DNA of 64,000 nucleotides from Clostridia bacterium (GTDB lineage Bacteria > Bacillota > Clostridia > RUG12999), in the NCBI GenBank assembly GCA_045633565.1, contig JAZQYO010000026.1, positions 915 through 64,914 on the forward strand, read 5' to 3'. Position 1 is the stretch's first letter. Every line of letters starts with the position of its first letter. Made by a program: the position numbers and the translations under genes. The notes beneath the pieces were generated by a model. That model made no database searches and was not told where the DNA came from. It saw nothing but the letters and a program-made list of their open reading frames with translations. Of this stretch, positions 30,038 to 49,397 are shown piece by piece.

Positions 30038-32575
30038 TTATTTCTTCGCAGCTACAATTATTCTAATTCTTCCGCCACTTTTTTGTGATTTATCATAATA
30101 TGCTTGTATTGAATACAATTCACGCTCAGCAATTAATTCGTCTAATCCTAAAATCAAGTATGTTCCTGAATAGTTTCTTAAATAAACAACAACTTCATCA
30201 GAAATAGCATAAGATGTTTGTCCACTCTTAAGATGTGTATTGTTTATTTCTGAAACAGAACCTTTTAATAAGGTTAAAGACTGCATACTCTTCAGTTCTT
30301 CATCTTGGATAATGAATTTTGCAGGCGTTCCTCTTGATACGGAAGTAAACATCCTATCGCTTGTGGAATAAGTATATACTGTTCCGGCAATATCATACTC
30401 ATATTCACCCGACATAAAATATTCATCAGATTCATTCTTAACTTTCGTTACAATACCGTATTTAATCATATCTCCGGTAACATTATTTAGGATTAATTTT
30501 GAAACTTTATTCTTTTCATCTAATTCATAATAAGCAACACTATTTGAACTTAGTGTAACCCCATCTATACGTTGCGGATAAATAGATTTGTACAAAGTAG
30601 CGTCACTTGAAGATGTGGAATAGACATCAAGAATTTTTACATCTGTTGACAAGTCATAAGTTCCAATAGTTTTATTATCCCAATCAAGCTTGCCTGAAAT
30701 TGTATATTTATCTGTTATTCTACTTAATTTAGCTTTTTCATTTTCAAACGAAACTTTTACTATTGCATTAACATAGCTTTTGCAAGAGGTATTCGTTATA
30801 TAATCTGTTTCAGTTCCATCAGGAGCGACTAAGCAAGCATAATATGATTTTGTACTAGTATTATCAACCTTAAACTCTTTTGCTCCTGCTTCTTTAACAA
30901 AATATACCAAGTTCTGTGTTTTTGCAGACGGAGTGATTACATCTGCAACTTTACCGTCCTTACCCAACAATAGCGTTATTGTATCGCCGTAATTAACGCT
31001 ACCATTTGATGATAATTTATTAAATGCAGTTGAACTTTCTATATCATAATTCTTACCGGATACAGTAATGCTACTTGGTGTATCTTTGTTTGGTGTTGCA
31101 TTCTGATATACACCTGTATATTGCTTGTTATATGCAAATACCATGTTCAAATCATTAGAATAATATAAAATATCGTTTACTTGAACATCTGATGAACTAC
31201 ATTTTACTCCATTTCTAATAATTGATGCAGTTGAAACATCTACAGAGAATTTATTTTGCCATCCACCTGAAGCTGCCGTAACCGGACCAATATATTCACC
31301 TTTTTCTACACTAATATAAGAAATAATATTATTAGTGTATTTAACATTGAATACATCGCCAATAACAAGTTCAGACTTTATATCGCCGTAAGTATATTTG
31401 TTATTTCCTTTATATACAACAACATCATCATTTATTGTTAATTGCTGCATTGTGTTACCTTTATATACAAGAACGGAATCGTTTAATGCAGAATAATAAA
31501 CATATTTAGTCAAATCAGCCTGAGCTATGGTGTTTGAGGTAGTTTCATTAACAACTATATATTGTATAATTCCATTGTTATATCTAATAGATAAAACATC
31601 TCCCAAGTTTAATGAGTCTTTAATAGTAGCATATGTTGTTTTTGTTCCATCCTTATATGTTACAACATCATTATTAATATTTAGTTCGTATCGAACATTA
31701 TCAAGATAAGTAACTATTGTGTCATCAAGAATTGATGATACAACATATTTTTTTACTACATAATTTCCTTCTTGTTCTGTAGAAGATGATGGGGTAACCG
31801 CTACAAATCCTAGAGCATCCCCATATTGGTCTAAAAGCAATGTCCCTTTTTGACCGACATAGTTTTTGCTTAAAACATATTTAGATTCAAAAGTACCGTT
31901 ATCTGTTAATATATTTCCGGCTGCATCAATAGATATAATCTCAACATTTTCTTTTAAAGAATAGTTCAAGTCGGCAACATAATCATTGTTAGATTTATTC
32001 TTTGCTATGAGCATATTTTTTATAAGAGTTGCCACATCTCCTCTAGTCATTTCTTGACCTGCTACGCAATTTACGCCATTGAGTAGTCCTAAGTTTTGGG
32101 CGATATTTATCGGACCATAAGGCCACGAAATGGCAAAATCATCATTTGTATATCCTAACAATCTAACTATTATAGCTAAACATTCTTCAAAAACAATAGT
32201 ATTATCAGGCTTAAATGTAGCATCTTCATATCCCGATATCAAAGAATTTTCAAGTGCAACATAAATATATGGCGCTCCCCAATAGGTGTACTTTACATCT
32301 TTAAAAATAGAAACTTGAATACTGCTTGACACTAGGCTTCTATATTTTGATGCTTCTACAATTAATTTAGTAAATTCGGCTCGGTTAATTTGATTTTCTA
32401 AACGCAATTCACCGTCTTCGTACCCTGATAAAATACCTAAATTCATAAGAACTGATACATCGTTACTTGATGCAAAAACAGAAATGCTTGTGTTAGTCAG
32501 CAGAAGCAAACTTAGAATCAAACAAATTATTTTTCTTTTCATTAAATCACCTCTAACATCATAAGTTTTATTCAT
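30038..32575 (-). CDS. Large SLH-domain cell-surface protein, 845 aa, with internal beta-rich sequence repeats
   Basis: Signal peptide; three S-layer-homology segments (GILSGYEDGELRLENQINRAEF..., SLISGYEDATFKPDNTIVFEECLAII..., GLLNGVN...); two about 70-aa internal repeats (VVSSILDDTIVTYLDNVRYELNINNDVVTYKDG... and YYSALNDSVLVYKGNTMQQLTINDDVVVYKGN...). Confidence 0.8.
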   Translation of the reverse strand: MNKTYDVRGDLMKRKIICLILSLLLLTNTSISVFASSNDVSVLMNLGILSGYEDGELRLENQINRAEFTKLIVEASKYRSLVSSSIQVSIFKDVKYTYWGAPYIYVALENSLISGYEDATFKPDNTIVFEECLAIIVRLLGYTNDDFAISWPYGPINIAQNLGLLNGVNCVAGQEMTRGDVATLIKNMLIAKNKSNNDYVADLNYSLKENVEIISIDAAGNILTDNGTFESKYVLSKNYVGQKGTLLLDQYGDALGFVAVTPSSSTEQEGNYVVKKYVVSSILDDTIVTYLDNVRYELNINNDVVTYKDGTKTTYATIKDSLNLGDVLSIRYNNGIIQYIVVNETTSNTIAQADLTKYVYYSALNDSVLVYKGNTMQQLTINDDVVVYKGNNKYTYGDIKSELVIGDVFNVKYTNNIISYISVEKGEYIGPVTAASGGWQNKFSVDVSTASIIRNGVKCSSSDVQVNDILYYSNDLNMVFAYNKQYTGVYQNATPNKDTPSSITVSGKNYDIESSTAFNKLSSNGSVNYGDTITLLLGKDGKVADVITPSAKTQNLVYFVKEAGAKEFKVDNTSTKSYYACLVAPDGTETDYITNTSCKSYVNAIVKVSFENEKAKLSRITDKYTISGKLDWDNKTIGTYDLSTDVKILDVYSTSSSDATLYKSIYPQRIDGVTLSSNSVAYYELDEKNKVSKLILNNVTGDMIKYGIVTKVKNESDEYFMSGEYEYDIAGTVYTYSTSDRMFTSVSRGTPAKFIIQDEELKSMQSLTLLKGSVSEINNTHLKSGQTSYAISDEVVVYLRNYSGTYLILGLDELIAERELYSIQAYYDKSQKSGGRIRIIVAAKK

Positions 32576-33689
32576 ATCGCAGAGCTTCTATTGGATTCAT
32601 ATCAGAAGCTTTTTTAGCAGGAAGATAGCCAAACACTATACCAATGCCACAAGATACTACAACCGCTATTATTACCGCTTTAAATGATATAATTAAAGCC
32701 ATTTTCATCAATTTCGTTACAAGCCAAGACAGTCCTATTCCAAAAATAACTCCAAAAATTCCACCAATTAGACTAGTTGTAATAGCTTCAACAATAAATT
32801 GACTCATAATATCCCAAGGAGTAGCGCCAATTGATTTTCTTATGCCGATTTCTTTAATTCTTTCAGTAACAGAAACCAACATAATATTCATTATACCTAT
32901 ACCACCAACAAGCAAAGAAATAGCAGCGACTCCAACAAGAATTGCAGATATTCCATCTAATAAAGAATTCATTGTATCTTGAATATCGGTCATGCTAATA
33001 ACTGAATATGCTTCATCATCTTTAAAAATGCTAAACAGAAAATTTGAAATAAGAAACTTTGCTTTATTGTTCATTTCCGAACTAACAGTAGAAAATGAAA
33101 TACTGTCAATACTATTAGTGTGTGTTAATCTTTGCACAACAGTATATGGAATCAATATCGCATCATCGGTTGTTCCTTTTTCATTGGAACTTGCTTTATT
33201 AAGCACTCCACAAACTTTAAAGGTATAGCCCTTGATTTTAATTTCTTCACCTATAACATCTGTTTTTCCAAAAATTGTTTTTGCAGCATACGAACCAAGT
33301 ACGCAAGTGTTGATTTTCCCTTCAACATCTAAATATGAAAAAAACTTTCCACTTGCCATACTCGCTCCGTTTACCCTGCAATACATTTCACTTACACCAT
33401 TTACCGGAGTTTCATAGGATATATTGTTTTTTTTAACTTTCGGATCACCTAATGACATACTTACAGTAAAAGAATCTATCACATCTCTGTTGTCATTATA
33501 TAGATCCACTAATTGTTCCATTTCTATCGGTTTATCTATTTTTCCCGTTGTCACGGCAGAAATTTTATTTGAGCCTAATGATTGAAACGACTCGATTATC
33601 ATATTGCTAAACCCATCCATTATGGCTACTAAAGTAATTACTGCCGCTATGCCTATAATAACACCAAGCATAGTGAGAAAACTTCTCAT
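32568..33689 (-). CDS. ABC transporter permease, FtsX/MacB-type
   Basis: 373 aa; N-terminal TM, large extracytoplasmic domain, and C-terminal FtsX 4-TM block (GIRKSIGATPWDIMSQF). Confidence 0.85.
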   Translation of the reverse strand: MRSFLTMLGVIIGIAAVITLVAIMDGFSNMIIESFQSLGSNKISAVTTGKIDKPIEMEQLVDLYNDNRDVIDSFTVSMSLGDPKVKKNNISYETPVNGVSEMYCRVNGASMASGKFFSYLDVEGKINTCVLGSYAAKTIFGKTDVIGEEIKIKGYTFKVCGVLNKASSNEKGTTDDAILIPYTVVQRLTHTNSIDSISFSTVSSEMNNKAKFLISNFLFSIFKDDEAYSVISMTDIQDTMNSLLDGISAILVGVAAISLLVGGIGIMNIMLVSVTERIKEIGIRKSIGATPWDIMSQFIVEAITTSLIGGIFGVIFGIGLSWLVTKLMKMALIISFKAVIIAVVVSCGIGIVFGYLPAKKASDMNPIEALRYE

Positions 33690-33738
33690 TTTATTTACAC
33701 TTAAGCTTCTTAAGGCTAATAAAAAAGGCTGAATAATA

Positions 33739-34428
33739 TTAATTTAAACCATCTCCATTTGTATCCGCAACGATTTTTCCGTCACTTAATTGAATTATTC
33801 TATTGGTCTTATTTGCTATTGACATATCGTGGGTAATAATAATTACAGTAGAACCTTCATCGTGTAATGATTTCAAAATATTCAAAATTTCCACACCTGT
33901 TTTTGAATCCAAAGCACCCGTTGGTTCATCCGCTAATATAATTGATGGTTTTGCAACGATAGCTCTCGCTATTGCTACTCTTTGTTGCTGACCACCTGAA
34001 AGTTGTGATGGTAAATTGTTTTGCCTATCAGCCAATCCCACTATTTCCAAAGCTTCTATTGCATACTTTCTCCTTGCTTTTCGTGTTAACCCATAATACA
34101 ATAGTGGCAATTCCACATTTTCAAGTATAGTCAACTTTTGTATTAAATTGTATTGTTGAAAAATAAAACCTATTTCACGATTTCTCAAGTGAGCTTGTTC
34201 AATGGCATCCAATGTGCTAACATCTTTATTGTTTAATAAATATGTTCCGCCGGAAGGTACATCAAGACATCCCAAAATATTCATACAAGTAGATTTACCC
34301 GAACCTGATGCACCTACAATAGAAACAAACTCTCCGTCATTGATAATCAAAGAAACTCCATCTAAAGCTCTAATTTCTCTTTCTCCATCTTTATACAATT
34401 TAAAAATATTTGATAATTCTATCATCAA
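33739..34428 (-). CDS. ABC transporter ATP-binding protein, MacB/LolD/YknY-type
   Basis: Walker A GASGSGKST, signature LSGGQQQRVAIARA, Walker B ILADEPTGALD. Confidence 0.9.
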   Translation of the reverse strand: MMIELSNIFKLYKDGEREIRALDGVSLIINDGEFVSIVGASGSGKSTCMNILGCLDVPSGGTYLLNNKDVSTLDAIEQAHLRNREIGFIFQQYNLIQKLTILENVELPLLYYGLTRKARRKYAIEALEIVGLADRQNNLPSQLSGGQQQRVAIARAIVAKPSIILADEPTGALDSKTGVEILNILKSLHDEGSTVIIITHDMSIANKTNRIIQLSDGKIVADTNGDGLN

Positions 34429-34436
34429 ATCACCTA

Positions 34437-36038
34437 TTATTCTGTTTCTCCAAAGACAACTACACTATCATCTTCTTTAAGACCACTTATAATCTCGATA
34501 TATTCACCGCCATTCAAACCAACTTCAACTTCAATTTCTTTTGTTAATTGCTTGTTTGAATCTTTATTTAAAATAGTAACTATGTTACCTCTATTAACTG
34601 CATAAGAGGGAACCATAAGGACATCCTCTCTTGAATCAATTTCCATAGTTGCAGTAACATTCATACCGGGAATAAGCACCTCTGTATCTTCCGTAAGATT
34701 TATCACAATCTTCACCGGATATACCGTAACATTATCTTCTGTAATACCCACCGTACTTATGTTATCCACATATCCTGAATATGTTTCGGCATTATATGCA
34801 TCAGGAACAATGGAAACTTCTTGACCTTCATAAACATCTTTAATGTCAGTTTCATCTACATTTATGTAGAATATCAAAGAAGACAAATCCTCTATTCTTG
34901 CCATTGAACCATCGACAGTACTAGTATTAAGTTTTTCGCCCGCTTTAGCACGTTTTTCTACAACTTTGCCCGAAATAGGAGCTGTTATTTTATAATCATT
35001 TAATTGCTCATTATAGCTATCAAGAGTAAACTGAGCATCGCTTATTGCAGATTTATTATCTGAAAGTTGTTTTTCTAAAGCAGAATTATATATTGTTGCA
35101 ACATTTGTTCCTACCGAAACAGAGTCACCAACTTTTTTGCTTATCGATTTAACTGTCCCACTTGCTTCAGAACGTATTGTGTATGTTTGTGCATAGTTAA
35201 AACTACCAATTGAGTTGCAAGCATATTCACCAACTAAAGCTGAAGCTTTATCACCTGATTTTATAGCACCGGGATTCTGGACTCTGATTTCAATAGATGT
35301 CACGGGAACGCCATGTGTATTCAACAATGTACCCGTTGCTTTATATGAAACAGTTCCGTGAACTTTTTTACTTGAGCCTTGTATTTGTACAGTTGCACTT
35401 TGACCTACAGAAATATTCTGTGCATCTTCTGCAAGAAAGTCTATTGTTAGAATCATGTTATCAAAATCTATAACATCAGCAATTTCAGCACCTTCAGATA
35501 CAACATCGCCTTCTTTTATATGTAATTTAGTTATTGAACCGGAAACATTAGATGTAATTGATAGTTTAGACATTTCAGCTTGTGTTTGTCTATATGTTTC
35601 CTGAGCTTTCGCTAAATCATTTTTAGCAATTTTAATATTTTTGTCTAGTTCAGTATGACTTATCAAATATAATAAATCTCCCTTTTCAACCATTTGTCCT
35701 TCTTCAAAATAGTCCTCTAATATATCACCATCAACTAGAGAAGTAATATCGTAGTGATTGATAGCTTCAATAGTGCCACGACCTTCAACATTCCTTACAA
35801 CATCCCCACGTTTAACTTCTATGATTGTCGCATTTTCCATCTGTCTAATATTAGCATCTTGAATTGTATTCTTAATATAAATTACTAATAAAATAATTAC
35901 AATTATAGCGACTATACCAAAAGTACTTAATATACCCGTGACCAACTTGTTGTCTAGTTTAAATTTTTTATTTAATTTTTTTGTATATTTTTTGCTTTTT
36001 TTTCTTCTGAATTCGCTTTCAGGGATGTTTAATGGCAT
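34437..36038 (-). CDS. HlyD-family membrane-fusion (periplasmic adaptor) protein, 533 aa
   Basis: N-terminal TM anchor, coiled-coil and biotinyl-lipoyl-like segments; its order with the ATPase and FtsX permease mirrors B. subtilis yknXYZ and macAB. Confidence 0.8.
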   Translation of the reverse strand: MPLNIPESEFRRKKSKKYTKKLNKKFKLDNKLVTGILSTFGIVAIIVIILLVIYIKNTIQDANIRQMENATIIEVKRGDVVRNVEGRGTIEAINHYDITSLVDGDILEDYFEEGQMVEKGDLLYLISHTELDKNIKIAKNDLAKAQETYRQTQAEMSKLSITSNVSGSITKLHIKEGDVVSEGAEIADVIDFDNMILTIDFLAEDAQNISVGQSATVQIQGSSKKVHGTVSYKATGTLLNTHGVPVTSIEIRVQNPGAIKSGDKASALVGEYACNSIGSFNYAQTYTIRSEASGTVKSISKKVGDSVSVGTNVATIYNSALEKQLSDNKSAISDAQFTLDSYNEQLNDYKITAPISGKVVEKRAKAGEKLNTSTVDGSMARIEDLSSLIFYINVDETDIKDVYEGQEVSIVPDAYNAETYSGYVDNISTVGITEDNVTVYPVKIVINLTEDTEVLIPGMNVTATMEIDSREDVLMVPSYAVNRGNIVTILNKDSNKQLTKEIEVEVGLNGGEYIEIISGLKEDDSVVVFGETE

Positions 36039-36056
36039 ACTATCGTCCTCTCAAAA

Positions 36057-36893
36057 TTACTCGTTAATATCAAATCTATTAAACCAAATTGTACCAACAA
36101 CTATTGTTAGTATGCAATAAAGAGCTATCGAAATAAATGAATAAATTATCATATCCGAACTTAACTGCATACTTGAAAATTCATCCATATAAGTAGAAGG
36201 GAATATATAACCTAAATAATAGAAAGCATAACTCTTGCTTTGTAAAGTTGCGACAGTAGAAAGCAATATATTTTCTAAAATGCTGATAGCAAAATATGAA
36301 ATTACAATTATGGTTTCGTTATGTATTAATATGGAAAGTACAATAGCTAATCCTGAATATGATACATGGGATATTCCTACTCTCAGAGCAATGAATAATA
36401 TATTCAGTATTTGCATTATTGAAAATTCTGTACCCCAACCGTACATGATTGTTGCTACCAAAGTTGTAAATACAGCCATAAATAATGTTATACCAACAAC
36501 TGTAATTGAAAACGCAATATACTTACCTACAAAAATTTCATTTCTTGTTAAATCGGTAGTGAACAGATTTCTAATCGTTTTCTTAGAAAAGTCAGATGTA
36601 AAGAAAAATACAATTAGAAAAGGAATAAAATAATAAAACAACGAATTGAAGTCCATTATTGAAAATGCTTCAAATCCCGTTTTTACTATAAAAGTATCTT
36701 CTACAGTGGAATAATCAAGATTTCCCCACAAGCAGATTAACTTTACAATAGACACCATATTTAACATTACCCAAATTACAGAGAATGTCAAAAGAACTTT
36801 TATAGACTTACTTTTGAGAAACTTATAAAGCTCTGCTTTAACAATATTTGACATTTTCGTTCCCTCCTTCGGTGTAAAGCATAAACAATTCAC
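36057..36893 (-). CDS. ABC-2-type transporter permease (6 TM)
   Basis: Polytopic hydrophobic 278-aa protein directly downstream of an ABC ATPase. Confidence 0.6.
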   Translation of the reverse strand: MNCLCFTPKEGTKMSNIVKAELYKFLKSKSIKVLLTFSVIWVMLNMVSIVKLICLWGNLDYSTVEDTFIVKTGFEAFSIMDFNSLFYYFIPFLIVFFFTSDFSKKTIRNLFTTDLTRNEIFVGKYIAFSITVVGITLFMAVFTTLVATIMYGWGTEFSIMQILNILFIALRVGISHVSYSGLAIVLSILIHNETIIVISYFAISILENILLSTVATLQSKSYAFYYLGYIFPSTYMDEFSSMQLSSDMIIYSFISIALYCILTIVVGTIWFNRFDINE

Positions 36894-37758
36894 TCATTGA
36901 TACATTCGATATTCTAACATCCAATCCTATATTTTCATTTCGCAGACGCTCGGAAAAATCATTGAGTTTTTTCAATGATACTTCATCGTTTCCTTTATTA
37001 ACTAATCTTATCGTATTAGCGATACTATCTACAAAAAATATTCTTAAATCGGATTCATGTTTTTTGATAAAATCTTTTTTTGCTTCCTCATTATCAAACT
37101 GTAAATCAATACATTTTGTGACTATCTCTATTTCTTCTTTTTTAAACTCAGTCACAATTTTTGAATTATGTAAAATGGCATAGTGAGTTGCAAGATTATC
37201 TGTTTCTCGAATCAAATGACTAGAAAGGAAAATAGTAACTCCTCTTTCTTTATTTAAGCGATATAATAAATCTTTAACTTCGATAATTCCTGCAGGATCT
37301 AAACCGTTAAGAGGTTCATCTAAAATGATGAAACTCGGATTGCCCATAATTGCTCTTGCCAAAGCTAATCGCTGTTTCATTCCTAATGAGTATTTTTTTA
37401 CCTTTTTCTTATTTTTCCAATCCAACCCAAGAAATTCCAACGAAGATTTAATTTCGTCATCTCCGCATCCAATAAGCAATGCATAATACTTAAGATTTTC
37501 ATATGCATTCATATTCTCAAAAAATGTAGGTGTTTCAATGATTGCTCCGATACCGTTATCATTATCGTTATAATTAAACTCACATTCTCCTGAATCGGTT
37601 TCTACCATTCCTAATGCTATTTTCATCATAGTTGTTTTTCCGGCACCATTTAAACCAAGAAGAAAAAATATACTTCCTTCCGGTATAAATAAACTCATGT
37701 TTTTCAGGACTTCTTGTCCTTTATAATTTTTGCAGACATTGCTATATCGTATATTCAT
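36838..37758 (-). CDS. ABC transporter ATP-binding protein
   Basis: Walker A GLNGAGKTT, signature LSLGMKQRLALARA, Walker B ILDEP. Confidence 0.85.
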   Translation of the reverse strand: MNIRYSNVCKNYKGQEVLKNMSLFIPEGSIFFLLGLNGAGKTTMMKIALGMVETDSGECEFNYNDNDNGIGAIIETPTFFENMNAYENLKYYALLIGCGDDEIKSSLEFLGLDWKNKKKVKKYSLGMKQRLALARAIMGNPSFIILDEPLNGLDPAGIIEVKDLLYRLNKERGVTIFLSSHLIRETDNLATHYAILHNSKIVTEFKKEEIEIVTKCIDLQFDNEEAKKDFIKKHESDLRIFFVDSIANTIRLVNKGNDEVSLKKLNDFSERLRNENIGLDVRISNVSMSELFMLYTEGGNENVKYC

Positions 37759-37774
37759 CGTTCATCCTCCTTGT

Positions 37775-38284
37775 TTAGCTTGGTATTGTTAAGAAAATTG
37801 AAGCTATTCCAACAATTATACTTATAGCTATGTTTTTCTTTTTGCTTGTTTCATTTATTATTATAGGTAAGTACTTGTAAGTTGATATTGCCGTTAATAC
37901 ATAAAAAGGAATAAAACTTATCAACCCAACAGTTCCGTATGTATAAAAAGCATTTCCAACAGTTAAGAAACCAACCGTATTAGTTGCTATTGTTAATGGG
38001 AAATACATTAGAGAACAAGCAGAAAGATGCATGAATTTTTTTATATCAAATTCTGTTCCTAATGCAGCTCCAACAAAGTAAGCTATAACAGCCAAAGCAA
38101 CTATTGTAAGACTATGCGTAAAAATCGGTGTAATTATTGCGATTGCTATTGAAAGCAAAATTGGCAACCCCGTTCCTTTAACTACATCAAAATTTAAAAC
38201 TAAGTTCAACAACGAAAGTAGAACACTACATCCGAATGATATAAATAATTTCGTTTTTAAAGGTAATTCACTAATCTTTTTCAT
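37775..38284 (-). CDS. Polytopic membrane protein, 169 aa
   Basis: Four to five hydrophobic helices; no recognised motif. Confidence 0.5.
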   Translation of the reverse strand: MKKISELPLKTKLFISFGCSVLLSLLNLVLNFDVVKGTGLPILLSIAIAIITPIFTHSLTIVALAVIAYFVGAALGTEFDIKKFMHLSACSLMYFPLTIATNTVGFLTVGNAFYTYGTVGLISFIPFYVLTAISTYKYLPIIINETSKKKNIAISIIVGIASIFLTIPS

Positions 38285-38297
38285 GTTATCCTCCTAT

Positions 38298-38807
38298 TTA
38301 TACAATTATATTAATGAAGTATGGTGTTACAAATGCTTCAATTGCAGCACAAAATGCCACAAACAATATATGTAAAAGAAATATTAATACATATTTCTTA
38401 AAATTCGTTCTTATAAATTTTTCGCCTTTATTAACGATATAACCGGTTGCTAAAATACATGGTATTTCAAATATTCCATGTGGCAATAAAAGCAGGAGAA
38501 GTCCTATATTACTTTTAAGTATAAATCCAACTGTATAACCAAGCACCATTCCGTTAACGCCATATAGACAGTAAGCCACTCTATTCGTAAAGATAATAGA
38601 AATATAGAATACGCATATCAAAAATCCGTTGTTCTTGAACAACTCAATAAACTTATCAATTCCATATATTTCATTGAAATTATTATACCCCGTTTCCATT
38701 AACGGTTTTTCAAAAATTAATCCCACTATGATTCCCAAAGCCATTGCAAGAAAATATATTTTTGATGGATAAGCCATAAAGCCTAACTTTTTGCAAATCT
38801 TGTTCAT
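38298..38807 (-). CDS. SpoIIM/DUF95-like membrane protein
   Basis: LLLLLPHGIFEIPCILATGY matches the conserved LPHG.FE.P core of the SpoIIM/DUF95 family; 169 aa, 4-5 TM. Confidence 0.6.
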   Translation of the reverse strand: MNKICKKLGFMAYPSKIYFLAMALGIIVGLIFEKPLMETGYNNFNEIYGIDKFIELFKNNGFLICVFYISIIFTNRVAYCLYGVNGMVLGYTVGFILKSNIGLLLLLLPHGIFEIPCILATGYIVNKGEKFIRTNFKKYVLIFLLHILFVAFCAAIEAFVTPYFINIIV

Positions 38808-38936
38808 ATATAATCACACTCTTTAAATTTTGTATTTAATTTAGTAAAAGAAGCTCGACAATGGCAAGCTTGGCTCTCAAAGCTCGCCACGTCTTACTTA
38901 CATTATAATGTTGCTATGTAACTTTTTGGGTAGTGA

Positions 38937-39188
38937 TTATTCGCCAACTACTGTTAAGCCAACAAGTACTACTTTAATCCAAGTTGCAACAGGGCAGAAA
39001 ATAGCAATCAAAGTAGCTACTTTAGAAAAAGCATTTGCATATTTGATTGATAATGCTAACCACTTAGGCATCTTCTTGCCAGTGTGCTGATATACGATAT
39101 TGATGATACCGAACTGCATCATTGCACAGAGAAGAGCTGTTGCAGCCAAAGACACATTAGTTACGCTTCTTTTAATTGCGTTTGTCAT
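38937..39188 (-). CDS. 83-aa hydrophobic cationic peptide, paralog B (bacteriocin-like or small 2-TM protein)
   Basis: MTNAIKRSVTNVSLAATALLCAMMQFGIINIVYQHTGKKMPKWLALSIKYANAFSKVATLIAIFCPVATWIKVVLVGLTVVGE; RBS GGAGG 8 nt upstream; about 85% identical to the tandem neighbour. Confidence 0.55.
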   Translation of the reverse strand: MTNAIKRSVTNVSLAATALLCAMMQFGIINIVYQHTGKKMPKWLALSIKYANAFSKVATLIAIFCPVATWIKVVLVGLTVVGE

Positions 39189-39223
39189 GATCGTTTCCTC
39201 CGAACTTCAAACCGTATTAGGTA

Positions 39224-39475
39224 TTAGTCGCCAACAAGTGTTAAGCCAACAAGTACTACTTTAATCCAAGTTGCAACAGGGCAGAAAAGTGCAATTAAGG
39301 TTGAAACCTTAGAAAGAGCACTTGCGTACTTGATTGACAATGCTAACCACTTAGGCATCTTCTTACCTGTGTGCTGATACACGATATTGATGATGCCGAA
39401 CTGCATCATTGTGCAGAGAAGAGCTGTTGCAGCCATAGAAAGGTTTGTTGCGCTTCTTTTAATTGCATTTGTCAT
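39224..39475 (-). CDS. 83-aa hydrophobic cationic peptide, paralog A
   Basis: The proper start is ATG 39475 (MTNAIKRSATNLSMAATALLCTMMQ...) with GGAGG RBS; the track's 39520 start adds a non-conserved 15-aa extension that has no RBS. Confidence 0.55.
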   Translation of the reverse strand: MTNAIKRSATNLSMAATALLCTMMQFGIINIVYQHTGKKMPKWLALSIKYASALSKVSTLIALFCPVATWIKVVLVGLTLVGD

Positions 39476-39543
39476 GTTTGTTTCCTCCATTTTGAAAATG
39501 ATATATATTTTACCTGACATCTATGATGCCAGGGAGAGCCCAC

Positions 39544-40968
39544 TTATCTTAAGACTTTGTGTGAAACTCGAATTGTCATCAACACTATTATGATGTTTAT
39601 AATAGTCATAATTGCTGATGAAAAGTATTGGTTTATAGGAAATAAAAATGTTGAAACCACTATCATAAGTGATGGAGTAAATACAACAATTTTAATTATT
39701 CCATTTATAAAAAGTAACAAGTTATCAGATGTGTTTTCATTTTTATATATTCCAAAAAATATCAACTCTGAAGATAGCGAAAGCATTAAAAAACTTAAAT
39801 ATGTTACTGCTAACAATGAAGAATTTATATCATAAGCATTAAAAAAATCTATAACACCAATCATCAATAGTCCTATTGCAAATTGATTCGCCAAGTATGG
39901 AATTGATATTTTGACGAACTTCGTAATAGGTGTTTCCGGAATCAAGTGAATGTAATGTTTTTTGAATTCTGTTTCAAAAATATCCAACCCAAAAATAAAA
40001 CCGGATAATAAGGCATATACAAGCAAGAATATACATCCAATTGACGTTCCGTATGCATCACCAAATGTTTCACATAGTCCAACGCATAGAATTGCAAGTA
40101 TAATCCCAAAGATTGCAATTACAACTTGCTTAATCTGAAAGGCTTTATTACGCCACATTTCTACATATATTTTTTTACATATACTAGTGACATTTTTCTC
40201 TTTATATTCTTTTGAAGAAGTTTCCCAATCTAGTTGCGTATCTATAATAGGATTTGTTTCAGAATCACCTAAAAATACTTTTTTACAAGCTCTTAATACA
40301 AAGGTGAACAAACAAAAGCTAATGTTAGCTATTAGAAAACCAACTTGTGAATTTTTATATAATCCTATTATTCTTTCTGTCTTATTTGTAGCGAAATCGT
40401 ATTTAGAAAGATAATACCATATAAAAGACAGAAATATAACACAACAGATAGTTGAAATTACCTTTGCTAATGATTTGACACTTTTTTTATTTATTAAGCA
40501 ACTATATAACAAAGAAAAAACATTAATTTCGGCAATAATTGATAATATCGCTATACTTATCATCAGCGGAAGCTCATGTGTGTTTTCCATGCAAAAATAC
40601 AATACAAAATATGCAAAAGAAAAAACATTCGCACAAACTAAAAAAACACATTTTTTCCTAAACTCATAATTGCATATATCAATAGCTCGTATGGGAGAAG
40701 TAAGCAAAAACTGCTTGTCTGCATTTTTTATATTAAAGTTTTTTGAAAAAGCAAAATATGCGAAACCTAATAACCATAACCCAATTATGAGAATAAAATA
40801 TATAGCTATTAGCAAGTCACCGTTTTCTATTGTTATCCTCTCATTGCTAAACAAATCCGAGGCAAACGTGAACAACACAAAAGCGATTACTAAAATGTAT
40901 TTAGCCTGAAGTAAATTCTTTAGCTTATTTTTAATTGTGCATATTTCTAAAAAGCTAATAGCATCCAC
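39544..40968 (-). CDS. Large polytopic membrane protein, 474 aa, partner permease of the adjacent ABC ATPase
   Basis: Ten or more hydrophobic helices; 3-nt gap to the upstream ATPase gene. Confidence 0.6.
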   Translation of the reverse strand: MDAISFLEICTIKNKLKNLLQAKYILVIAFVLFTFASDLFSNERITIENGDLLIAIYFILIIGLWLLGFAYFAFSKNFNIKNADKQFLLTSPIRAIDICNYEFRKKCVFLVCANVFSFAYFVLYFCMENTHELPLMISIAILSIIAEINVFSLLYSCLINKKSVKSLAKVISTICCVIFLSFIWYYLSKYDFATNKTERIIGLYKNSQVGFLIANISFCLFTFVLRACKKVFLGDSETNPIIDTQLDWETSSKEYKEKNVTSICKKIYVEMWRNKAFQIKQVVIAIFGIILAILCVGLCETFGDAYGTSIGCIFLLVYALLSGFIFGLDIFETEFKKHYIHLIPETPITKFVKISIPYLANQFAIGLLMIGVIDFFNAYDINSSLLAVTYLSFLMLSLSSELIFFGIYKNENTSDNLLLFINGIIKIVVFTPSLMIVVSTFLFPINQYFSSAIMTIINIIIVLMTIRVSHKVLR

Positions 40969-40970
40969 TT

Positions 40971-41672
40971 TTATTCCTCCATTTTTATTTTTAAATTCAT
41001 AAAAATATCTTCCAATTGTTTTTGACCTGATAAAGCGCTTTTTTCATATTCAGAAAGCAACACACCGCCTGAAATTACTATTGCTTTATCCCATAGCTCC
41101 TCTACACTTTCTAAAATGTGAGTACTTATCAAAATTGTACATCCCTCATTTTTGAGTTCTTTCATAATTTCTTTTAATTCTTGTATTGCAAATATATCAA
41201 GTCCAACAAATGGCTCATCAAAAATAATTACTTTGGGGTTTATAAGCAAAGCACAACATATATTTAATTTTTGCTTCATTCCCTTTGAAAGTTCTTTGCC
41301 AATTTTTCTGCTATGTTCTGTTAAATCAAAGCGTTCAAGAAGTTTTATGGATTCCTTTTCCCAATTTTTCAACTTATAAGCCTTTGCAATAAATTGCAAA
41401 TGTTCTGATATTGTCAAATAATCATATACTTCTGCAACTTCGGGTACATAACCCAACACTTTCTTAGCTTCAATACTATTGCTTTTGTACCCGTCTATAT
41501 AAGCTTCACCTGAACAGTTAAGAGTTCCAATTATGCAATTAATGGTTGTTGTTTTTCCGGCTCCGTTTGGACCAACTAAAATGCCAATTTCACCGCTTCG
41601 CAATTCAAAACTAATATTTTCAATTATCTTCTTTTTTCTAATCGTCATAGACAGTCTTTTTGTGATTAGCAT
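40971..41672 (-). CDS. ABC transporter ATP-binding protein
   Basis: Walker A GPNGAGKTTT, signature LSKGMKQKLNICCAL, Walker B IIFDEP. Confidence 0.85.
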   Translation of the reverse strand: MLITKRLSMTIRKKKIIENISFELRSGEIGILVGPNGAGKTTTINCIIGTLNCSGEAYIDGYKSNSIEAKKVLGYVPEVAEVYDYLTISEHLQFIAKAYKLKNWEKESIKLLERFDLTEHSRKIGKELSKGMKQKLNICCALLINPKVIIFDEPFVGLDIFAIQELKEIMKELKNEGCTILISTHILESVEELWDKAIVISGGVLLSEYEKSALSGQKQLEDIFMNLKIKMEE

Positions 41673-42232
41673 GATATTCCCTCAATCTTTTGATAAATAT
41701 AATTTAATTTTTCCGAAACCAATTCACTATTTTCCCACAAGCAAAAATCATGAATCGTTGCAACAAACAACAAATAGTACGGTCTTAACATATCGTGGGG
41801 AACATGATAAATATCAGATAACTCACGAGAGTAATTCATATACTTTCCGTATATGGGTAATAATTTATCCCTGCATTTTTCGCCATATTTAGGGCTTGAA
41901 ATTACCTGATAAATATATCGCATCATTGATTTCTCATTTGATAACATTTCAAATGCTTTCACGAATAAAGTTTTTAAATTGGGTGTTTCATCAAATGATA
42001 ATGCTGCAATCTTTTTGTCAAGAGTGTTCATATATCTAACTGCACACTCAACAACAATTTCATCTTTAGAATCAAAGTAAATATACAATGCCGCTTTATA
42101 AGTTTTGCAATAATTTGCTAACTCATTAATGCTTGTATTCTCCAATCCTTGTTTTACAAATAATTCAAAGCATTTATCCAAGAGTTGATTTTTCTTTTGT
42201 TCTTTATGCTCCTCGCTAAGCACAACAAACAC
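41666..42232 (-). CDS. TetR/AcrR-family transcriptional regulator; first gene of the about 14-kb minus-strand operon
   Basis: N-terminal HTH LDKCFELFVKQGLENTSINELANYCKTYKAALYIYFDSKDEIV. Confidence 0.8.
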   Translation of the reverse strand: MFVVLSEEHKEQKKNQLLDKCFELFVKQGLENTSINELANYCKTYKAALYIYFDSKDEIVVECAVRYMNTLDKKIAALSFDETPNLKTLFVKAFEMLSNEKSMMRYIYQVISSPKYGEKCRDKLLPIYGKYMNYSRELSDIYHVPHDMLRPYYLLFVATIHDFCLWENSELVSEKLNYIYQKIEGISC

Positions 42233-42282
42233 CTCTTTTAAAAATCCATACCGACCGGTAGGTATATTTTTTGCCTAAAAAA

Positions 42283-42315
42283 AATAGTTTTCACCACATA
42301 ATTGTGATTATGTGG
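42283..42315. promoter_or_regulatory. Perfect palindrome TTTTCACCACATAATTGTGATTATGTGGTGAAAA about 50 bp upstream of the TetR gene; candidate operator
   Basis: 11-bp arms with a 4-nt centre. A related inverted version (CCACATAATcacaATTATGTGG) occurs at 42524-42556. Confidence 0.4.
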
Positions 42316-42458
42316 TGAAAACAGAACAACAAGTGTCATTTGTTTGCAAATTTAGGCACGAAAACAAGACCGATGTTAGTCAATAAAGTTTCATCGGTCA
42401 ATTTTTGATGTCTATTTTTGTGCATATCGGAGATTTTTTGTAATTTATACTAAAATTA

Positions 42459-42490
42459 TTGATTTTTTGTGTTGTGTGTGATATAATATT
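42459..42490 (+). promoter_or_regulatory. Consensus promoter TTGATT-17-TATAAT on the + strand, pointing into the 3' end of the integrase gene; would make a roughly 65-nt transcript ending at the 42524-42556 hairpin + T6
   Basis: ttgattttttgtgttgtgtgtgatataat, then the hairpin GTTCCACATAATcacaATTATGTGGTC TTTTTT. Confidence 0.4.
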
Positions 42491-42557
42491 TTATGTATTT
42501 TTAATGGTTGTTTTTATAAGTGTTCCACATAATCACAATTATGTGGTCTTTTTTATT

Positions 42558-43397
42558 TTACCACCTTAAAAGCCCGAGTTTTTGGATTTGCCTACGGTGG
42601 ACCTCGCCCGTACTCATCGTGTAAATCCTTGTAGTATTTACTGATGAGTGTCCTAAAATATCGGCAAGTCTTACGATATCTTTCTGCAAGCTGTAATAAG
42701 TTCTTGCAAAAAGATGTCTAAAACTGTGAGGGTACACTTTATCCTTTGATACTCCAGCAATTTCACATAACGCTTTTAACATCTTCCATATATGGCTTCT
42801 GTCAAGAGGCTTACCATTACGGCTCACGAAAACGGAGCCGTTTTTTATATTGTGTTCCCGAATATATCCCTTTAACATTTTACAAAGCTCTTTAGGAAGA
42901 ATTACAATACGCATTTTGCCTTTGCAATTTATTACCGCTTGTCCCGAATGAACGGCTGATGTAGTAATATAGCGTAATTCACTTACACGGATACCTGTAC
43001 TCGCTATGGTTTGTATCAGGTAATAAAGCCTTTGATTTTTCTTATCATTTGCCGCCGTGAGTAATCGCTCATATTCCGCTTTTGTCAGTTCCTTGTCTTT
43101 GCTTGAAAATATCTGCCTTTGTATTTTTAGTGCCTTTATCCGTATATCATGCCATTCCATAAATGCAAAGAAGCTATTAAGGGAAGATATTGCCGCATTG
43201 ACACTTGCAGGAGCATATTTTTCACAAAGTTCCTTTTTATACTCCAAAGCCAATACCTTTGTTACTTCCTGACCGCACAGCCAAGCCATAAAAAAGGTTA
43301 TATCACGAATATATTTTTCTATGGTATTTTCACTCTTTTCCTCCTCAATTAGATAATTTTTAAAGCTCAAAATAAGCTCATTTGTGATTTTTCTCAT
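42558..43397 (-). CDS. Tyrosine site-specific recombinase (phage-integrase/Xer-like), 279 aa
   Basis: N-terminal SAM-like domain; C-terminal catalytic box HSFRHLFARTYYSLQKDIVRLADILGHSSVNTTRIY (R...H..R...Y). Confidence 0.85.
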   Translation of the reverse strand: MRKITNELILSFKNYLIEEEKSENTIEKYIRDITFFMAWLCGQEVTKVLALEYKKELCEKYAPASVNAAISSLNSFFAFMEWHDIRIKALKIQRQIFSSKDKELTKAEYERLLTAANDKKNQRLYYLIQTIASTGIRVSELRYITTSAVHSGQAVINCKGKMRIVILPKELCKMLKGYIREHNIKNGSVFVSRNGKPLDRSHIWKMLKALCEIAGVSKDKVYPHSFRHLFARTYYSLQKDIVRLADILGHSSVNTTRIYTMSTGEVHRRQIQKLGLLRW

Positions 43398-43602
43398 TCA
43401 AATCAACTTCCTTTCCTTTATGTATTCTACCACTTACATAAACAAACTATTTAGAAGTCATCAATGAATTTTAGCATTTACACAAATCTCCACTAAAAGT
43501 CTATTTAATAAGCGGTATTTTGACAAATGTGCGGATTTACAGATACAAATTAAGCCCGAATATGCAAGCTGAATTTTGCTTGTATATTCGGGCTTTTATA
43601 TT

Positions 43603-46682: not shown

Positions 46683-46690
46683 TCGCCGTG

Positions 46691-48930: not shown

Positions 48931-48955
48931 ACTAAAAATACGGAGGATTTTTATT

Positions 48956-49255: not shown

Positions 49256-49397
49256 CTGTCCGGTACTGTAACGAGCAGGGAACTTGTATTGCACAAATTC
49301 CATAAAAGGCGGGACTTCCTTTCGGAAATCCTGCCTTTTGTCTTTGGGGAGTTCCCCAATCCCCCGAAAATTACATTTTAAATAGGAGTTGATTTTA

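What the first reader, a model, noticed from the sequence alone, without database searches (positions are those of the whole stretch)
37775..41672. Tandem 83-aa paralogous hydrophobic cationic peptides inside a TetR-controlled multi-ABC-transporter operon that also encodes a SpoIIM/DUF95-like protein: bacteriocin-like cluster?
Two adjacent genes (38937-39188 and 39224-39475) encode about 85%-identical 83-residue proteins. Each has its own GGAGG RBS. Both have a polar N-terminus (MTNAIKRS), a signal-like hydrophobic stretch, a lysine-rich amphipathic middle (HTGKKMPKWLALSIKY) and a very hydrophobic C-terminal helix ending in VGE/VGD. Upstream are a dedicated ABC ATPase and a 474-aa permease. 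Downstream are a DUF95/SpoIIM-family membrane protein, another membrane protein, a second ABC-2 exporter and a YknXYZ/MacAB-like tripartite exporter. The combination of small hydrophobic peptide(s), DUF95 protein and ABC ATPase is the hallmark of circular-bacteriocin and other class II bacteriocin loci. However, the peptides lack a double-glycine leader and end in an acidic residue, which is unusual for head-to-tail cyclised bacteriocins. They may therefore be a new peptide family, or simply paired 2-TM immunity or accessory proteins.
Basis: partly seen in the sequence, partly recalled or inferred. Interest (0 to 1): 0.65.

Follow-up and report, generated by a model that had tools for sequence, protein, structure and literature searches.

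The report
Undescribed circular-bacteriocin-like peptide gene cluster
Two adjacent genes encode near-identical 83-residue precursors of a rare, undescribed peptide family, distantly related to gassericin A-type circular bacteriocins and surrounded by the full maturation, export and self-protection gene set; this adds a new branch to a known class of antimicrobial peptides.

Summary
Two 83-aa ORFs lie on the minus strand (39224-39475 and 38937-39188). They are 88% identical, and each has a GGAGG ribosome-binding site. They sit between a TetR / ABC ATPase / 474-aa PF16962 permease block and a SpoIIM/DUF95 gene, a 169-aa membrane protein, an ABC-2 exporter and a HlyD-MacB-FtsX exporter.

The peptides match no Pfam or NCBIfam model. 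Only about two dozen relatives (79-101 aa) exist among 5.8 billion protein clusters. In all 12 loci with readable flanks, the peptide gene lies directly upstream of a DUF95 gene, and three loci have a 56-57-aa immunity-like ORF in between.

Profile-profile comparison links the family specifically to subgroup ii circular bacteriocins (gassericin A / butyrivibriocin AR10). Probability is 90-93% with the C-termini in register. Shuffled, reversed and subgroup i controls all score at background.

My best reading is a complete circular-bacteriocin gene cluster with a duplicated structural gene. I predict a leader of about 27 aa and a cationic 56-aa core (I28-E83). Cyclisation, secretion and activity are untested. 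The acidic C-terminal residue is atypical, and the cleavage site is uncertain (positions about 19-31).

This is a new member of a known kind and is moderately interesting.

The parts
41666..42232 (-). TetR-family regulator. Its stop overlaps the start of the ATPase gene.
   Evidence: Pfam TetR_N 42.9 bits. An orthologue occupies the same position in L001 (31% identity). Only a remnant is left in L003.
40971..41672 (-). ABC ATPase (the 'D' component), 233 aa
   Evidence: Pfam ABC_tran 91 bits. It is 30% identical to GaaT of the gassericin A cluster and 28% identical to As-48D. It is conserved in L001, L003, L007, L014 and L019.
39544..40968 (-). 474-aa polytopic membrane protein (PF16962 ABC_export). 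It is the presumed permease partner of the ATPase and sits in the position and size class of the 'B' proteins of circular-bacteriocin clusters.
   Evidence: Pfam ABC_export 75 bits. A 458-510-aa counterpart is present in L001, L003, L007, L014/15 and L019. In L007 the counterpart scores only 16.2 bits, below the 29.7-bit cutoff. It is the most divergent gene of the cluster, 28% identical between the window and L001. It has no BLAST similarity to As-48B.
39224..39475 (-). Precursor peptide, copy 2 (83 aa, ends VGD). GGAGG at 39484-39488.
   Evidence: identical to P0002
38937..39188 (-). Precursor peptide, copy 1 (83 aa, ends VGE). GGAGG at 39197-39201. Predicted leader is residues 1-27 and predicted core is I28-E83 (56 aa).
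   Evidence: identical to P0001. hhalign and HMMER alignments to subgroup ii precursors. Core-length constancy across the family.
38851..38899 (-). Stem-loop after the second structural gene, followed by a short T-rich tail (CTTTTAC). Likely a terminator or attenuator that separates the highly expressed peptide genes from the machinery genes.
   Evidence: Terminator-like hit. RNA fold of the spacer gives -32.4 kcal/mol, z = -4.7. The same hairpin is read in L003 with base changes on both sides of the stem and a longer T run.
38298..38807 (-). SpoIIM/DUF95 membrane protein (the 'C' component, class-defining for circular bacteriocins), 169 aa
   Evidence: Pfam PF01944 50.2 bits against a cutoff of 26.9. 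It is 28% identical to GaaD, including the LPHGIFE motif. It follows the peptide gene directly in all 12 loci.
37775..38284 (-). 169-aa polytopic membrane protein (Yip1-like or C1-like accessory or immunity component)
   Evidence: No Pfam hit in the window. The L001 orthologue gives a weak Yip1 hit, 25.4 bits against a cutoff of 28.6. A 158-182-aa counterpart always follows DUF95. Yip1 proteins are common in circular-bacteriocin clusters (PMC8534725; PMC8659200).
36838..37758 (-). Second ABC ATPase, 306 aa (closest NCBIfam model is the lantibiotic-protection type)
   Evidence: Pfam ABC_tran. NCBIfam TIGR03740 199 bits, below its 309.75-bit cutoff. Conserved in L001, L003, L009, L014, L019, L021 and L023.
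36057..36893 (-). ABC-2 type permease, partner of the second ATPase (presumed immunity exporter)
   Evidence: Pfam ABC2_membrane_4 25.6 bits, just under the 27-bit cutoff. L001 and L019 orthologues hit ABC2_membrane families.
34437..36038 (-). HlyD/YknX-type membrane-fusion protein (counterpart of As-48F)
   Evidence: Pfam HlyD_3 112 bits and HlyD_D23 93 bits
33739..34428 (-). MacB-type ABC ATPase (homologue of As-48G)
   Evidence: Pfam ABC_tran. 45% identical to As-48G on pPD1, E 4e-58.
32568..33689 (-). MacB_PCD + FtsX permease (homologue of As-48H)
   Evidence: Pfam MacB_PCD 116 bits and FtsX 82 bits. 29% identical over 272 aa to As-48H.

Best explanation
This is a complete biosynthetic gene cluster for a head-to-tail cyclised (circular) bacteriocin of a previously undescribed peptide family, with the structural gene duplicated in tandem.

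**Shown here**
- The two 83-aa genes are real and under purifying selection.
- They belong to a very rare family of 79-101-aa peptides.
- That family is always encoded directly upstream of a DUF95/SpoIIM gene and a 158-182-aa membrane protein.
- Where flanks allow, an ABC ATPase with a PF16962 permease and a second ATPase with an ABC-2 permease are also present.
- The family is remotely but specifically similar to the precursors of subgroup ii circular bacteriocins (gassericin A, butyrivibriocin AR10, paracyclicin, plantaricyclin), with the C-termini coinciding.

**Inferred by analogy with the AS-48 and gassericin A systems**
1. The TetR repressor controls one minus-strand operon.
2. The two peptide genes have strong ribosome-binding sites and are followed by a stem-loop. 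Precursor mRNA therefore exceeds machinery mRNA.
3. Each precursor has a leader of about 27 residues: a basic N-terminus, a hydrophobic membrane-targeting stretch and a conserved Q-F-(G/D/N/S) end.
4. The leader is removed and the 56-residue core (I28 to E83 or D83) is joined head-to-tail and exported. This is done by a membrane complex of DUF95, the 169-aa protein, the ATPase and the PF16962 permease.
5. The producer protects itself with the ABC-2 exporter and the HlyD-MacB-FtsX exporter, which are homologues of As-48FGH.
6. The two products (net charge +5, GRAVY 0.9; predicted cyclic average masses 6140.4 and 6095.4 Da) kill related Gram-positive bacteria by inserting into their membranes.
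For: **Gene set**
- Precursor, DUF95 and ATP-binding protein together are the published minimum for every circular-bacteriocin cluster (PMC8534725; PMC8659200). All three are present.
- The layout parallels as-48ABCC1DD1EFGH on pPD1 (As-48G 45% identical, As-48H 29%).
- It also parallels the cerecyclin cluster, which has a membrane protein B, DUF95, an ATPase, a Yip1 protein, ABC genes and a regulator.
- In the gassericin A cluster gaaA is likewise followed directly by SpoIIM.

**Family and context**
- 22 proteins in 5.8 billion clusters and 10 in 1.84 billion representatives. None carries a Pfam domain on record, and the 11 members scanned directly here had no significant hit.
- The peptide gene is followed by DUF95 in 12 of 12 loci.
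- L007, L008 and L022 have an extra 56-57-aa 2-TM immunity-like ORF.
- L007 and L014/15 have agr-type quorum-sensing genes just upstream.

**Remote homology**
- hhalign against mature subgroup ii: probability 89.9%, E 1.7e-6, P41-E83 aligned to P14-A58.
- hhalign against full precursors: probability 92.6%, E 4.6e-7, 73 columns.
- Controls: 150 column shuffles reach at most 18.8 against real scores of 33.9 and 39.3, and reversed profiles score 12. Four subgroup i families give probability 0.2-1.5%.
- HMMER aligns paracyclicin and butyrivibriocin precursors end to end. It places their known Asn|Ile cleavage site at G27|I28.

**Core prediction and expression signals**
- From I28 the core is 55-58 aa in all 22 members, against 58 aa in subgroup ii. 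The leader varies from 22 to 44 aa.
- No other small ORF in the cluster could be the precursor.
- dN/dS between the copies is 0.12.
- The stem-loop after the peptide genes is conserved.
- Multi-copy structural genes are known for this class.
Against: - There is no experimental evidence for secretion, cleavage, cyclisation or activity.
- Pfam PF12173 and PF09221 and NCBIfam circular-bacteriocin models do not hit any of the members scanned, even at E up to 10. HMM-to-sequence scores against subgroup ii are only 10-17 bits.
- The C-terminal residue in the window clade is Glu or Asp, and Lys or Gln in some relatives. Known circular bacteriocins end in a hydrophobic or aromatic residue, which is thought to be needed for cyclisation (PMC8659200).
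- The residue before the predicted core is Gly in the window. It is not the conserved Asn of subgroup ii.
- hhalign on full precursors prefers another register, with QFGI aligned to QFGI. That would start the core about 4-9 residues earlier.
- A 56-aa core would be shorter than any characterised one (58-76 aa).
- The window has no small 50-60-aa immunity gene.
- AlphaFold2 models are low confidence (pLDDT 60-64). They gave no structural match in the PDB, so a saposin-like fold is not shown.
- The large membrane protein is not detectably related to As-48B.
Confidence: 0.65

Rival explanations
1. The peptides are leader-cleaved but linear (not cyclised) hydrophobic cationic bacteriocins or signalling peptides. 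They are exported by the ATPase / PF16962 transporter. DUF95 and the 169-aa protein act only in immunity or export.
For: The charged C-terminal residue (E or D, and K or Q in relatives) does not fit the hydrophobic C-terminus thought necessary for cyclisation. No cyclising enzyme has ever been identified for this class, so the presence of DUF95 does not prove cyclisation. Agr-type quorum-sensing genes lie next to some family members.
Against: DUF95 next to a small peptide gene is treated as class-defining for circular bacteriocins. The family aligns to subgroup ii circular precursors with both C-termini coinciding to the residue. Core length is held at 55-58 aa, as expected if both ends must meet. 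Of the 22 members, 14 end in Ala or Leu, as in subgroup ii.
Confidence: 0.15
2. The 83-aa proteins are not secreted. They are small 2-3-TM integral membrane subunits or immunity proteins of the DUF95/ABC complex. The toxic product is either encoded elsewhere or does not exist.
For: They have three hydrophobic segments. AlphaFold predicts long helices at 2-25, 28-36, 42-64 and 69-82. The N-terminal region, including the putative cleavage site, is well conserved. There is no recognisable signal-peptidase or GG site. The window has no separate small immunity gene.
Against: L007, L008 and L022 carry a distinct 56-57-aa 2-TM immunity-like ORF in addition to the peptide. No other candidate precursor ORF exists in the window cluster. 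Similarity is to bacteriocin precursors, which have equally hydrophobic leaders and cores. The lead position in the sub-operon, the strong ribosome-binding site, the following stem-loop and the tandem duplication are typical of structural genes.
Confidence: 0.12
3. The cluster is a decayed or silent remnant carried on a mobile element and makes no product in its host.
For: It lies next to a tyrosine recombinase and conjugative-element-like genes. The L003 copy has lost the TetR gene. About a quarter of circular-bacteriocin clusters were judged non-functional in a published survey.
Against: All 12 genes are intact, with coupled or closely spaced starts. dN/dS of the peptide genes is 0.10-0.31. 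The whole set is syntenic and intact in L001 and L003.
Confidence: 0.05

Closest known systems
Subgroup ii circular bacteriocins (gassericin A / acidocin B, butyrivibriocin AR10, paracyclicin, plantaricyclin A; Pfam PF12173 BacteriocIIc_cy)
   Same: Precursors are 80-94 aa. The leader is polar, then hydrophobic, and 22-36 aa long. The core is very hydrophobic, about 58 aa, with a G-V-T-(L/I)-P-x-W motif and a (V/A/T)-(S/T/A)-A type C-terminus. The structural gene lies directly upstream of SpoIIM/DUF95 and is followed by an immunity gene, an ATPase and a permease. Profile-profile probability is 90-93% and specific.
   Different: No PF12173 hit. This family has its own conserved core motif, QFGIIxIVYxxTGWKMPKWLA. 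The core is 55-58 aa, and 56 aa in the window. The residue before the core is G, D, N or S rather than a conserved Asn. The window clade is cationic (+5, pI 9.8) rather than neutral or acidic, and ends in Glu or Asp. The cluster has a 474-aa PF16962 permease and a MacB-type tripartite exporter, which the gaa cluster lacks.
Enterocin AS-48 / bacteriocin 21 cluster (as-48ABCC1DD1EFGH, pPD1)
   Same: The inventory is the same: structural gene, large polytopic membrane protein, DUF95 protein, further membrane protein, ATPase, and an accessory HlyD-like / ATPase / FtsX-permease exporter. As-48G is 45% identical and As-48H 29% identical to the window proteins.
   Different: The peptide is unrelated to AS-48 (hhalign probability 1.5%). 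The large membrane protein is not detectably related to As-48B. There is no 56-aa D1-type immunity gene in the window. The window has an extra ABC-2 exporter and a TetR regulator.
Cerecyclin (cyc) cluster of Bacillus cereus, and other clusters with Yip1 proteins and multiple structural genes
   Same: The cyc cluster has a precursor, membrane protein B, DUF95, an ATPase, a Yip1-family protein, accessory ABC genes and a regulator (PMC8534725). [quoted passage not shown]
   Different: Those peptides belong to subgroup i families (NKR-5-3B or circularin-like). The taxa are Bacillales, whereas the named relatives of this family are Clostridia (Faecalimonas, Senegalia, Anaeromonas).

Membership tests
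Circular (head-to-tail cyclised) bacteriocin gene cluster | Small precursor peptide gene clustered with a SpoIIM/DUF95 (PF01944) gene | tested here: met
   PF01944 50.2 bits against a cutoff of 26.9, 129 nt downstream of copy 1. The same adjacency is seen in 12 of 12 loci of the family.
Circular (head-to-tail cyclised) bacteriocin gene cluster | ATP-binding (ABC) protein in the cluster | tested here: met
   Three ABC ATPases. The first is 30% identical to GaaT.
Circular (head-to-tail cyclised) bacteriocin gene cluster | Peptide bond between the first and last residue of the core, after leader removal | not testable with these tools
   Needs MS/MS or NMR of the product. Predicted cyclic masses are given.
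Circular (head-to-tail cyclised) bacteriocin gene cluster | Hydrophobic or aromatic C-terminal residue (W, Y, F, L, A) | tested here: not met
   The window copies end in Glu and Asp, as do L001 and L003. Of the 22 family members, 14 end in Ala or Leu and 8 in E, D, K or Q. The requirement is proposed in PMC8659200.
Circular (head-to-tail cyclised) bacteriocin gene cluster | Small (about 50-60 aa) 2-3-TM immunity protein | tested here: inconclusive
   There is none in the window. A 56-57-aa ORF is present in L007, L008 and L022, and a 52-aa ORF in L014/15. Immunity genes are also missing from some accepted clusters.
Circular (head-to-tail cyclised) bacteriocin gene cluster | Compact 4-5-helix saposin-like fold with adjacent termini | tested here: inconclusive
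   AlphaFold2 predicts four helices, but pLDDT is only 60-64. Foldseek against the PDB gave no match.
Subgroup ii circular bacteriocins (PF12173, gassericin A-like) | Match to the family HMM | tested here: not met
   No PF12173 hit at E up to 1 or 10 for the 11 members scanned. My own HMMs give 10-17 bits.
Subgroup ii circular bacteriocins (PF12173, gassericin A-like) | Profile-level homology across the core, including the C-terminus | tested here: met
   hhalign probability 89.9-92.6%, E 1.7e-6 to 4.6e-7. Shuffle, reversal and subgroup i controls are all at background.
Subgroup ii circular bacteriocins (PF12173, gassericin A-like) | Conserved asparaginyl cleavage site (Asn|Ile) and a 58-aa neutral or acidic core | tested here: not met
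   In the aligned register the site is Gly27|Ile28 in the window, and G, D, N or S across the family. The core is 56 aa, +5, pI 9.8. An Asn30|Ile31 site exists in the window clade but is not conserved in the family.
AS-48-type cluster | As-48B-like large membrane protein and AS-48-family peptide (PF09221) | tested here: not met
   No BLAST similarity to As-48B. The peptide has no PF09221 hit. hhalign against the AS-48 family gives probability 1.5%.
AS-48-type cluster | Accessory As-48FGH-type exporter (adaptor, ATPase, FtsX permease) | tested here: met
   45% identical to As-48G and 29% identical to As-48H. HlyD domains are present in the adaptor.
Double-glycine-leader class II bacteriocins | GG/GA leader and an ABC transporter with a fused C39 peptidase domain | tested here: not met
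   There is no GG motif in residues 1-30. The ATPases are stand-alone proteins of 229-306 aa without a peptidase domain.

The most novel reading that the evidence does not exclude
[quoted passage not shown] It would have the smallest core yet (55-58 aa, 56 here). In the window clade, ring closure would go through a C-terminal Glu or Asp rather than a hydrophobic residue.

The peptide, DUF95, ATPase and PF16962 permease diverge together (28-63% identity between the window and L001). The immunity exporters stay at 76-91% identity. The cluster would therefore be a compact natural system for asking which membrane component recognises the leader and performs cleavage and ligation. That step is the long-standing unknown in this class.
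Probability: 0.3. Interest if true: 0.65.

Novelty: new member of a known kind. Interest (0 to 1): 0.5.

Why it matters
**For genome mining.** Circular bacteriocins are sought as stable antimicrobials. Current pipelines require the core peptide to hit PF12173 or TIGR03651 (PMC13289728). They will therefore miss this family. Its motifs are absent from the searchable literature and from the held supplement tables of three large surveys. A profile built from the 22 sequences would close that gap.

**For biology.** The family links a subgroup ii-like peptide scaffold to a subgroup i-like gene inventory. It shows a cationic derivative of an otherwise neutral scaffold. It also offers members with charged C-termini that test the proposed rule that cyclisation needs a hydrophobic C-terminal residue.

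**For ecology.** The named relatives are gut and anaerobic Clostridia (Faecalimonas, Senegalia, Anaeromonas), and the cluster sits beside mobile-element genes. This is relevant to competition within the gut microbiota.

Tried and rejected
- **Pfam and NCBIfam scans of both peptides and nine distant relatives.** No bacteriocin family was hit, only noise.
- **AlphaFold2 with 4 and with 22 sequences.** pLDDT was 64 and 60, too low to judge a saposin fold. Foldseek against the PDB gave no match.
- **tblastn of the 474-aa permease against PLSDB plasmids.** No match.
- **BLASTP of the permease against As-48B.** No similarity. As-48B itself has no Pfam hit, so I call the two proteins positional analogues only.
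- **Look-up of the contig encoding P0001.** Cluster look-ups returned no names or accessions.
- **Contigs for P0005, P0007, P0010 and P0012.** Too short for context.
- **The search for related loci with the 22-sequence alignment.** The 13-sequence alignment worked.
- **First shuffle script.** It hung and was rerun.
- **Lipoprotein reading, considered and rejected.** The Cys at position 21 is not in a lipobox and is absent from P0004.
- **Sec signal peptide with an AXA site, considered and rejected.** No such site is present.
- **One copy as immunity and the other as toxin, considered and rejected.** The copies are 88% identical, and other loci have only one copy.
- **N30|I31 as the cleavage site, entertained first.** It resembles the Asn|Ile site of subgroup ii, but Asn30 is not conserved in the family. 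Alignment and core-length constancy favour G27|I28. The site remains uncertain.

Full report
**1. Observation**

All genes of the region lie on the minus strand. ORFs 39224-39475 and 38937-39188 each encode 83 residues. They share 73 of 83 identical residues (88%) with no gaps. At the DNA level this is a 271-nt direct repeat at 88% identity with 287-nt spacing. Each ORF has GGAGG 8 nt upstream of its ATG.

Between the two copies dS is 0.44 and dN/dS is 0.12. Against the orthologues in two other assemblies dN/dS is 0.10-0.31. The duplication is therefore old and both copies are under purifying selection. This rules out an assembly artefact or chance ORFs.

- TetR_N (41666-42232)
- ABC_tran (40971-41672)
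- PF16962 ABC_export (39544-40968)
- SpoIIM/DUF95 at 50.2 bits against a cutoff of 26.9 (38298-38807)
- an unclassified 169-aa membrane protein (37775-38284)
- a second ABC ATPase plus ABC-2 permease (36838-37758 and 36057-36893; the permease's ABC2_membrane_4 hit is 25.6 bits, just under the 27-bit cutoff)
- HlyD (34437-36038), a MacB-type ATPase (33739-34428) and a MacB_PCD+FtsX permease (32568-33689)

No other small ORF in the cluster is a plausible peptide gene.

**2. How common is the peptide, and where does it occur?**

The peptides hit no Pfam or NCBIfam family.

- A word-indexed search of 5.8 billion protein clusters found only four sequences. These are the two window copies, one from a Faecalimonas MAG at 88% identity, and one metagenomic sequence at 60% identity.
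- An exhaustive HMMER profile search of 1.84 billion representatives found ten proteins at E up to 1e-3.
- A profile search of the 5.8-billion set found 22.

All are 79-101 aa. None carries a Pfam domain on record, and the nine distant members I scanned directly gave only noise. They share the core QFGIIxIVYxxTGWKMPKWLA.

I could read flanking DNA for 12 independent loci: the window, L001/L002, L003 (same as L006), L007, L008, L009, L013, L014/L015, L019, L021, L022 and L023.

- In every one the peptide gene is directly followed by a SpoIIM/DUF95 gene and then a 158-182-aa membrane protein.
- In three loci a 56-57-aa two-helix ORF of the kind typical of circular-bacteriocin immunity proteins lies between the peptide gene and DUF95.
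- Where the contig is long enough, there is also an ABC ATPase with a 458-510-aa PF16962 protein and a second ATPase with an ABC-2 permease. In L007 the PF16962 hit is weak (16.2 bits, below cutoff).
- Two clades have agr-type quorum-sensing genes immediately upstream: a LytTR regulator, a kinase and AgrB in both, plus a 49-aa AgrD-like ORF in L014/L015.

That criterion is clearly not met.

**3. Relation to known bacteriocins**

I took 13 mature subgroup ii circular bacteriocins from the supplement of Vezina et al. 2020 (PMC7132975). I took eight full precursors from Table S1 of Major et al. 2021 (PMC8659200).

hhalign results for the 22-member alignment:
- Against the mature set: probability 89.9%, E 1.7e-6. 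P41-E83 of the window peptide aligns to P14-A58, so the last residues coincide.
- Against the full precursors: probability 92.6%, E 4.6e-7 over 73 columns.

Controls:
- 150 column shuffles of either target reach at most 18.8 or 18.5, against real scores of 33.9 and 39.3. Reversed targets score 12.
- Four subgroup i families (amylocyclicin, AS-48, circularin A, carnocyclin/aureocyclicin) give probability 0.2-1.5%.
- Subgroup ii itself scores only 5-67% against those same subgroup i families.

The new family is therefore specifically and remotely related to the gassericin A / butyrivibriocin AR10 group. The shared features are visible by eye. One example is CGVAIPKWVAIAAASGMGIAA (P0010) against VGVTVPAWIAEAAAAFGIASA (butyrivibriocin AR10).

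Plain HMM-to-sequence scores are only 10-17 bits. That explains why PF12173 does not detect the family.

**4. Leader and core**

HMMER aligns the paracyclicin and butyrivibriocin precursors end to end with the family profile. It places their experimentally known Asn|Ile site exactly at G27|I28. Ungapped extension of the hhalign match (P41 to P14) gives the same position.

- I28 is nearly invariant, as is Ile1 of subgroup ii.
- The preceding residues form a conserved Q/N-F-(G/D/N/S) motif.
- Counted from I28, the core is 55-58 aa in all 22 members, against 58 aa in subgroup ii. The N-terminal part varies from 22 to 44 aa.

I therefore predict a 27-aa leader and a 56-aa core. The leader resembles subgroup ii leaders, which are polar and then hydrophobic.

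This is an inference, not a result. hhalign on full precursors prefers a register that pairs QFGI with the QFGI of subgroup ii, which would start the core a few residues earlier. The window clade also has an Asn30|Ile31 that mimics the subgroup ii site. I give the boundary as residues 19-31, most likely 27|28.

The window cores carry net charge +5, pI 9.8 and GRAVY 0.91. Most relatives, and subgroup ii itself, are near neutral.

**5. The machinery compared with characterised clusters**

In pLgLA39, gaaA is followed by SpoIIM (GaaD), the 53-aa GaaI, an ATPase and an ABC-2 permease. GaaD is 28% identical to the window DUF95 protein and shares LPHGIFE. GaaT is 30% identical to the window ATPase.

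On pPD1, the AS-48/bac21 cluster has the structural gene, a 556-aa membrane protein, SpoIIM, an ATPase, a 56-aa immunity gene and the EFGH exporter. As-48G is 45% identical and As-48H 29% identical to the window proteins. As-48B is not detectably related to the PF16962 protein.

The literature states:
- Precursor, DUF95 and ATP-binding protein are the common minimum of all such clusters.
- Yip1 proteins and accessory three-gene ABC sets are frequent.
- Clusters with two or three structural genes, about 82% identical, exist.

A stem-loop follows the second peptide gene (38851-38899, z = -4.7). It recurs in L003 with base changes on both sides of the stem. This fits attenuation between the structural genes and the machinery genes.

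Between the window and L001, the two halves of the cluster have diverged to different degrees:

| Gene | Identity, window vs L001 |
|---|---|
| TetR | 31% |
| ATPase | 59% |
| PF16962 permease | 28% |
| Peptide | 60% |
| DUF95 | 63% |
| 169-aa protein | 59% |
| ABC-2 ATPase / permease | 77% / 76% |
| HlyD | 83% |
| MacB-type ATPase | 91% |
| FtsX permease | 81% |

The two halves appear to have different histories or constraints. The permease diverges fastest, as expected if it contacts the peptide.

**6. Interpretation**

The best-supported explanation (confidence about 0.65) is a complete circular-bacteriocin cluster. Its duplicated structural gene belongs to an undescribed, rare family that is a distant branch of subgroup ii.

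The main points against are:
- the charged C-terminal residue (E or D here; K or Q in some relatives; A or L in 14 of 22);
- the lack of a conserved Asn before the core;
- the absence of a small immunity gene in the window;
- low-confidence structure models;
- the complete lack of experimental data.

Rival readings are:
- a linear leader-cleaved peptide (0.15);
- a membrane-resident subunit or immunity protein (0.12);
- a silent remnant (0.05).

**7. Novelty**

The family's motifs occur in no paper text of the library. They are also absent from the held supplement tables of three genome-mining surveys. No source names the proteins.

The kind of system is well known. New subgroups continue to be described, for example altitudin S with a 76-residue core. 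I therefore rate this a new member of a known kind and of moderate interest.

Two unusual features are worth testing: the acidic C-terminus and the 56-aa cationic core on a subgroup ii-like scaffold.

Noticed in passing
window 28205-32575 (minus strand): An 845-aa SLH-domain protein (30038-32575) starts 8 nt inside the end of the FtsX permease gene. It is followed 21 nt later by a 603-aa FtsH-type AAA/M41 protease (28205-30016). The same two genes follow the cluster in L001 (85% identity, and 71% over the part held) but not in L003. No leader peptidase is known for circular bacteriocins, so a linked membrane protease is worth a look. It may simply be the housekeeping ftsH next to the insertion site.
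   Followed up: partly
window 42243-42546: The 22-nt palindromic sequence CCACATAATCACAATTATGTGG occurs twice in opposite orientation (42294-42315 and 42525-42546), against 0 expected by chance. Both copies lie between the tyrosine recombinase gene and the TetR gene. One is followed by a T run on the minus strand and the other by a T run on the plus strand. These may be back-to-back terminators or recombination sites. A separate near-palindrome, ATACCTACCGGTCGGTAT, sits just upstream of the TetR ribosome-binding site and could be the operator.
   Followed up: partly
window 42558-51070: The cluster abuts mobile-element-like genes: a tyrosine recombinase (42558-43397), a 741-aa protein with a Ser/Thr kinase domain (43603-45828), an unclassified 285-aa protein (45825-46682), a DUF6076 protein (46691-47836), and further ORFs at 48082-48930 and 49697-51070 that I did not classify. 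In L003 the same recombinase lies next to the cluster. The bacteriocin genes are probably cargo of an integrative element.
   Followed up: no
window 32568-42232 compared with L001 410-9895: Divergence is mosaic. The regulator, biosynthesis and peptide half is 28-63% identical, while the ABC-2 and HlyD-MacB-FtsX half is 76-91% identical. This suggests module exchange or different constraints on the two halves.
   Followed up: partly
L007 6812-9577; L014 6820-9743; L015 1631-4554: Distant family members are preceded by agr-type quorum-sensing genes: a LytTR response regulator, a histidine kinase and AgrB, plus a 49-aa AgrD-like ORF in L014/L015. The window clade uses a TetR regulator instead. 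The regulatory input has been swapped between clades.
   Followed up: no
L008 6865-9725: Upstream of the Anaeromonas gelatinilytica family member are two paralogous secreted proteins of about 101 aa (no Pfam hit). They flank an ABC ATPase and a 398-aa permease. This may be a second, unrelated bacteriocin-like module.
   Followed up: partly
window 39526-39543; L003 9934-9945; L001 3132-3143: A short G/C-rich motif (GGGCTCTCC / CGGCTCTCC) is conserved immediately after the stop codon of the PF16962 gene in all three close loci, ahead of the A/T-rich spacer and the peptide ribosome-binding site. Its function is unknown. It could be part of a processing or promoter element for the peptide genes.
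   Followed up: no
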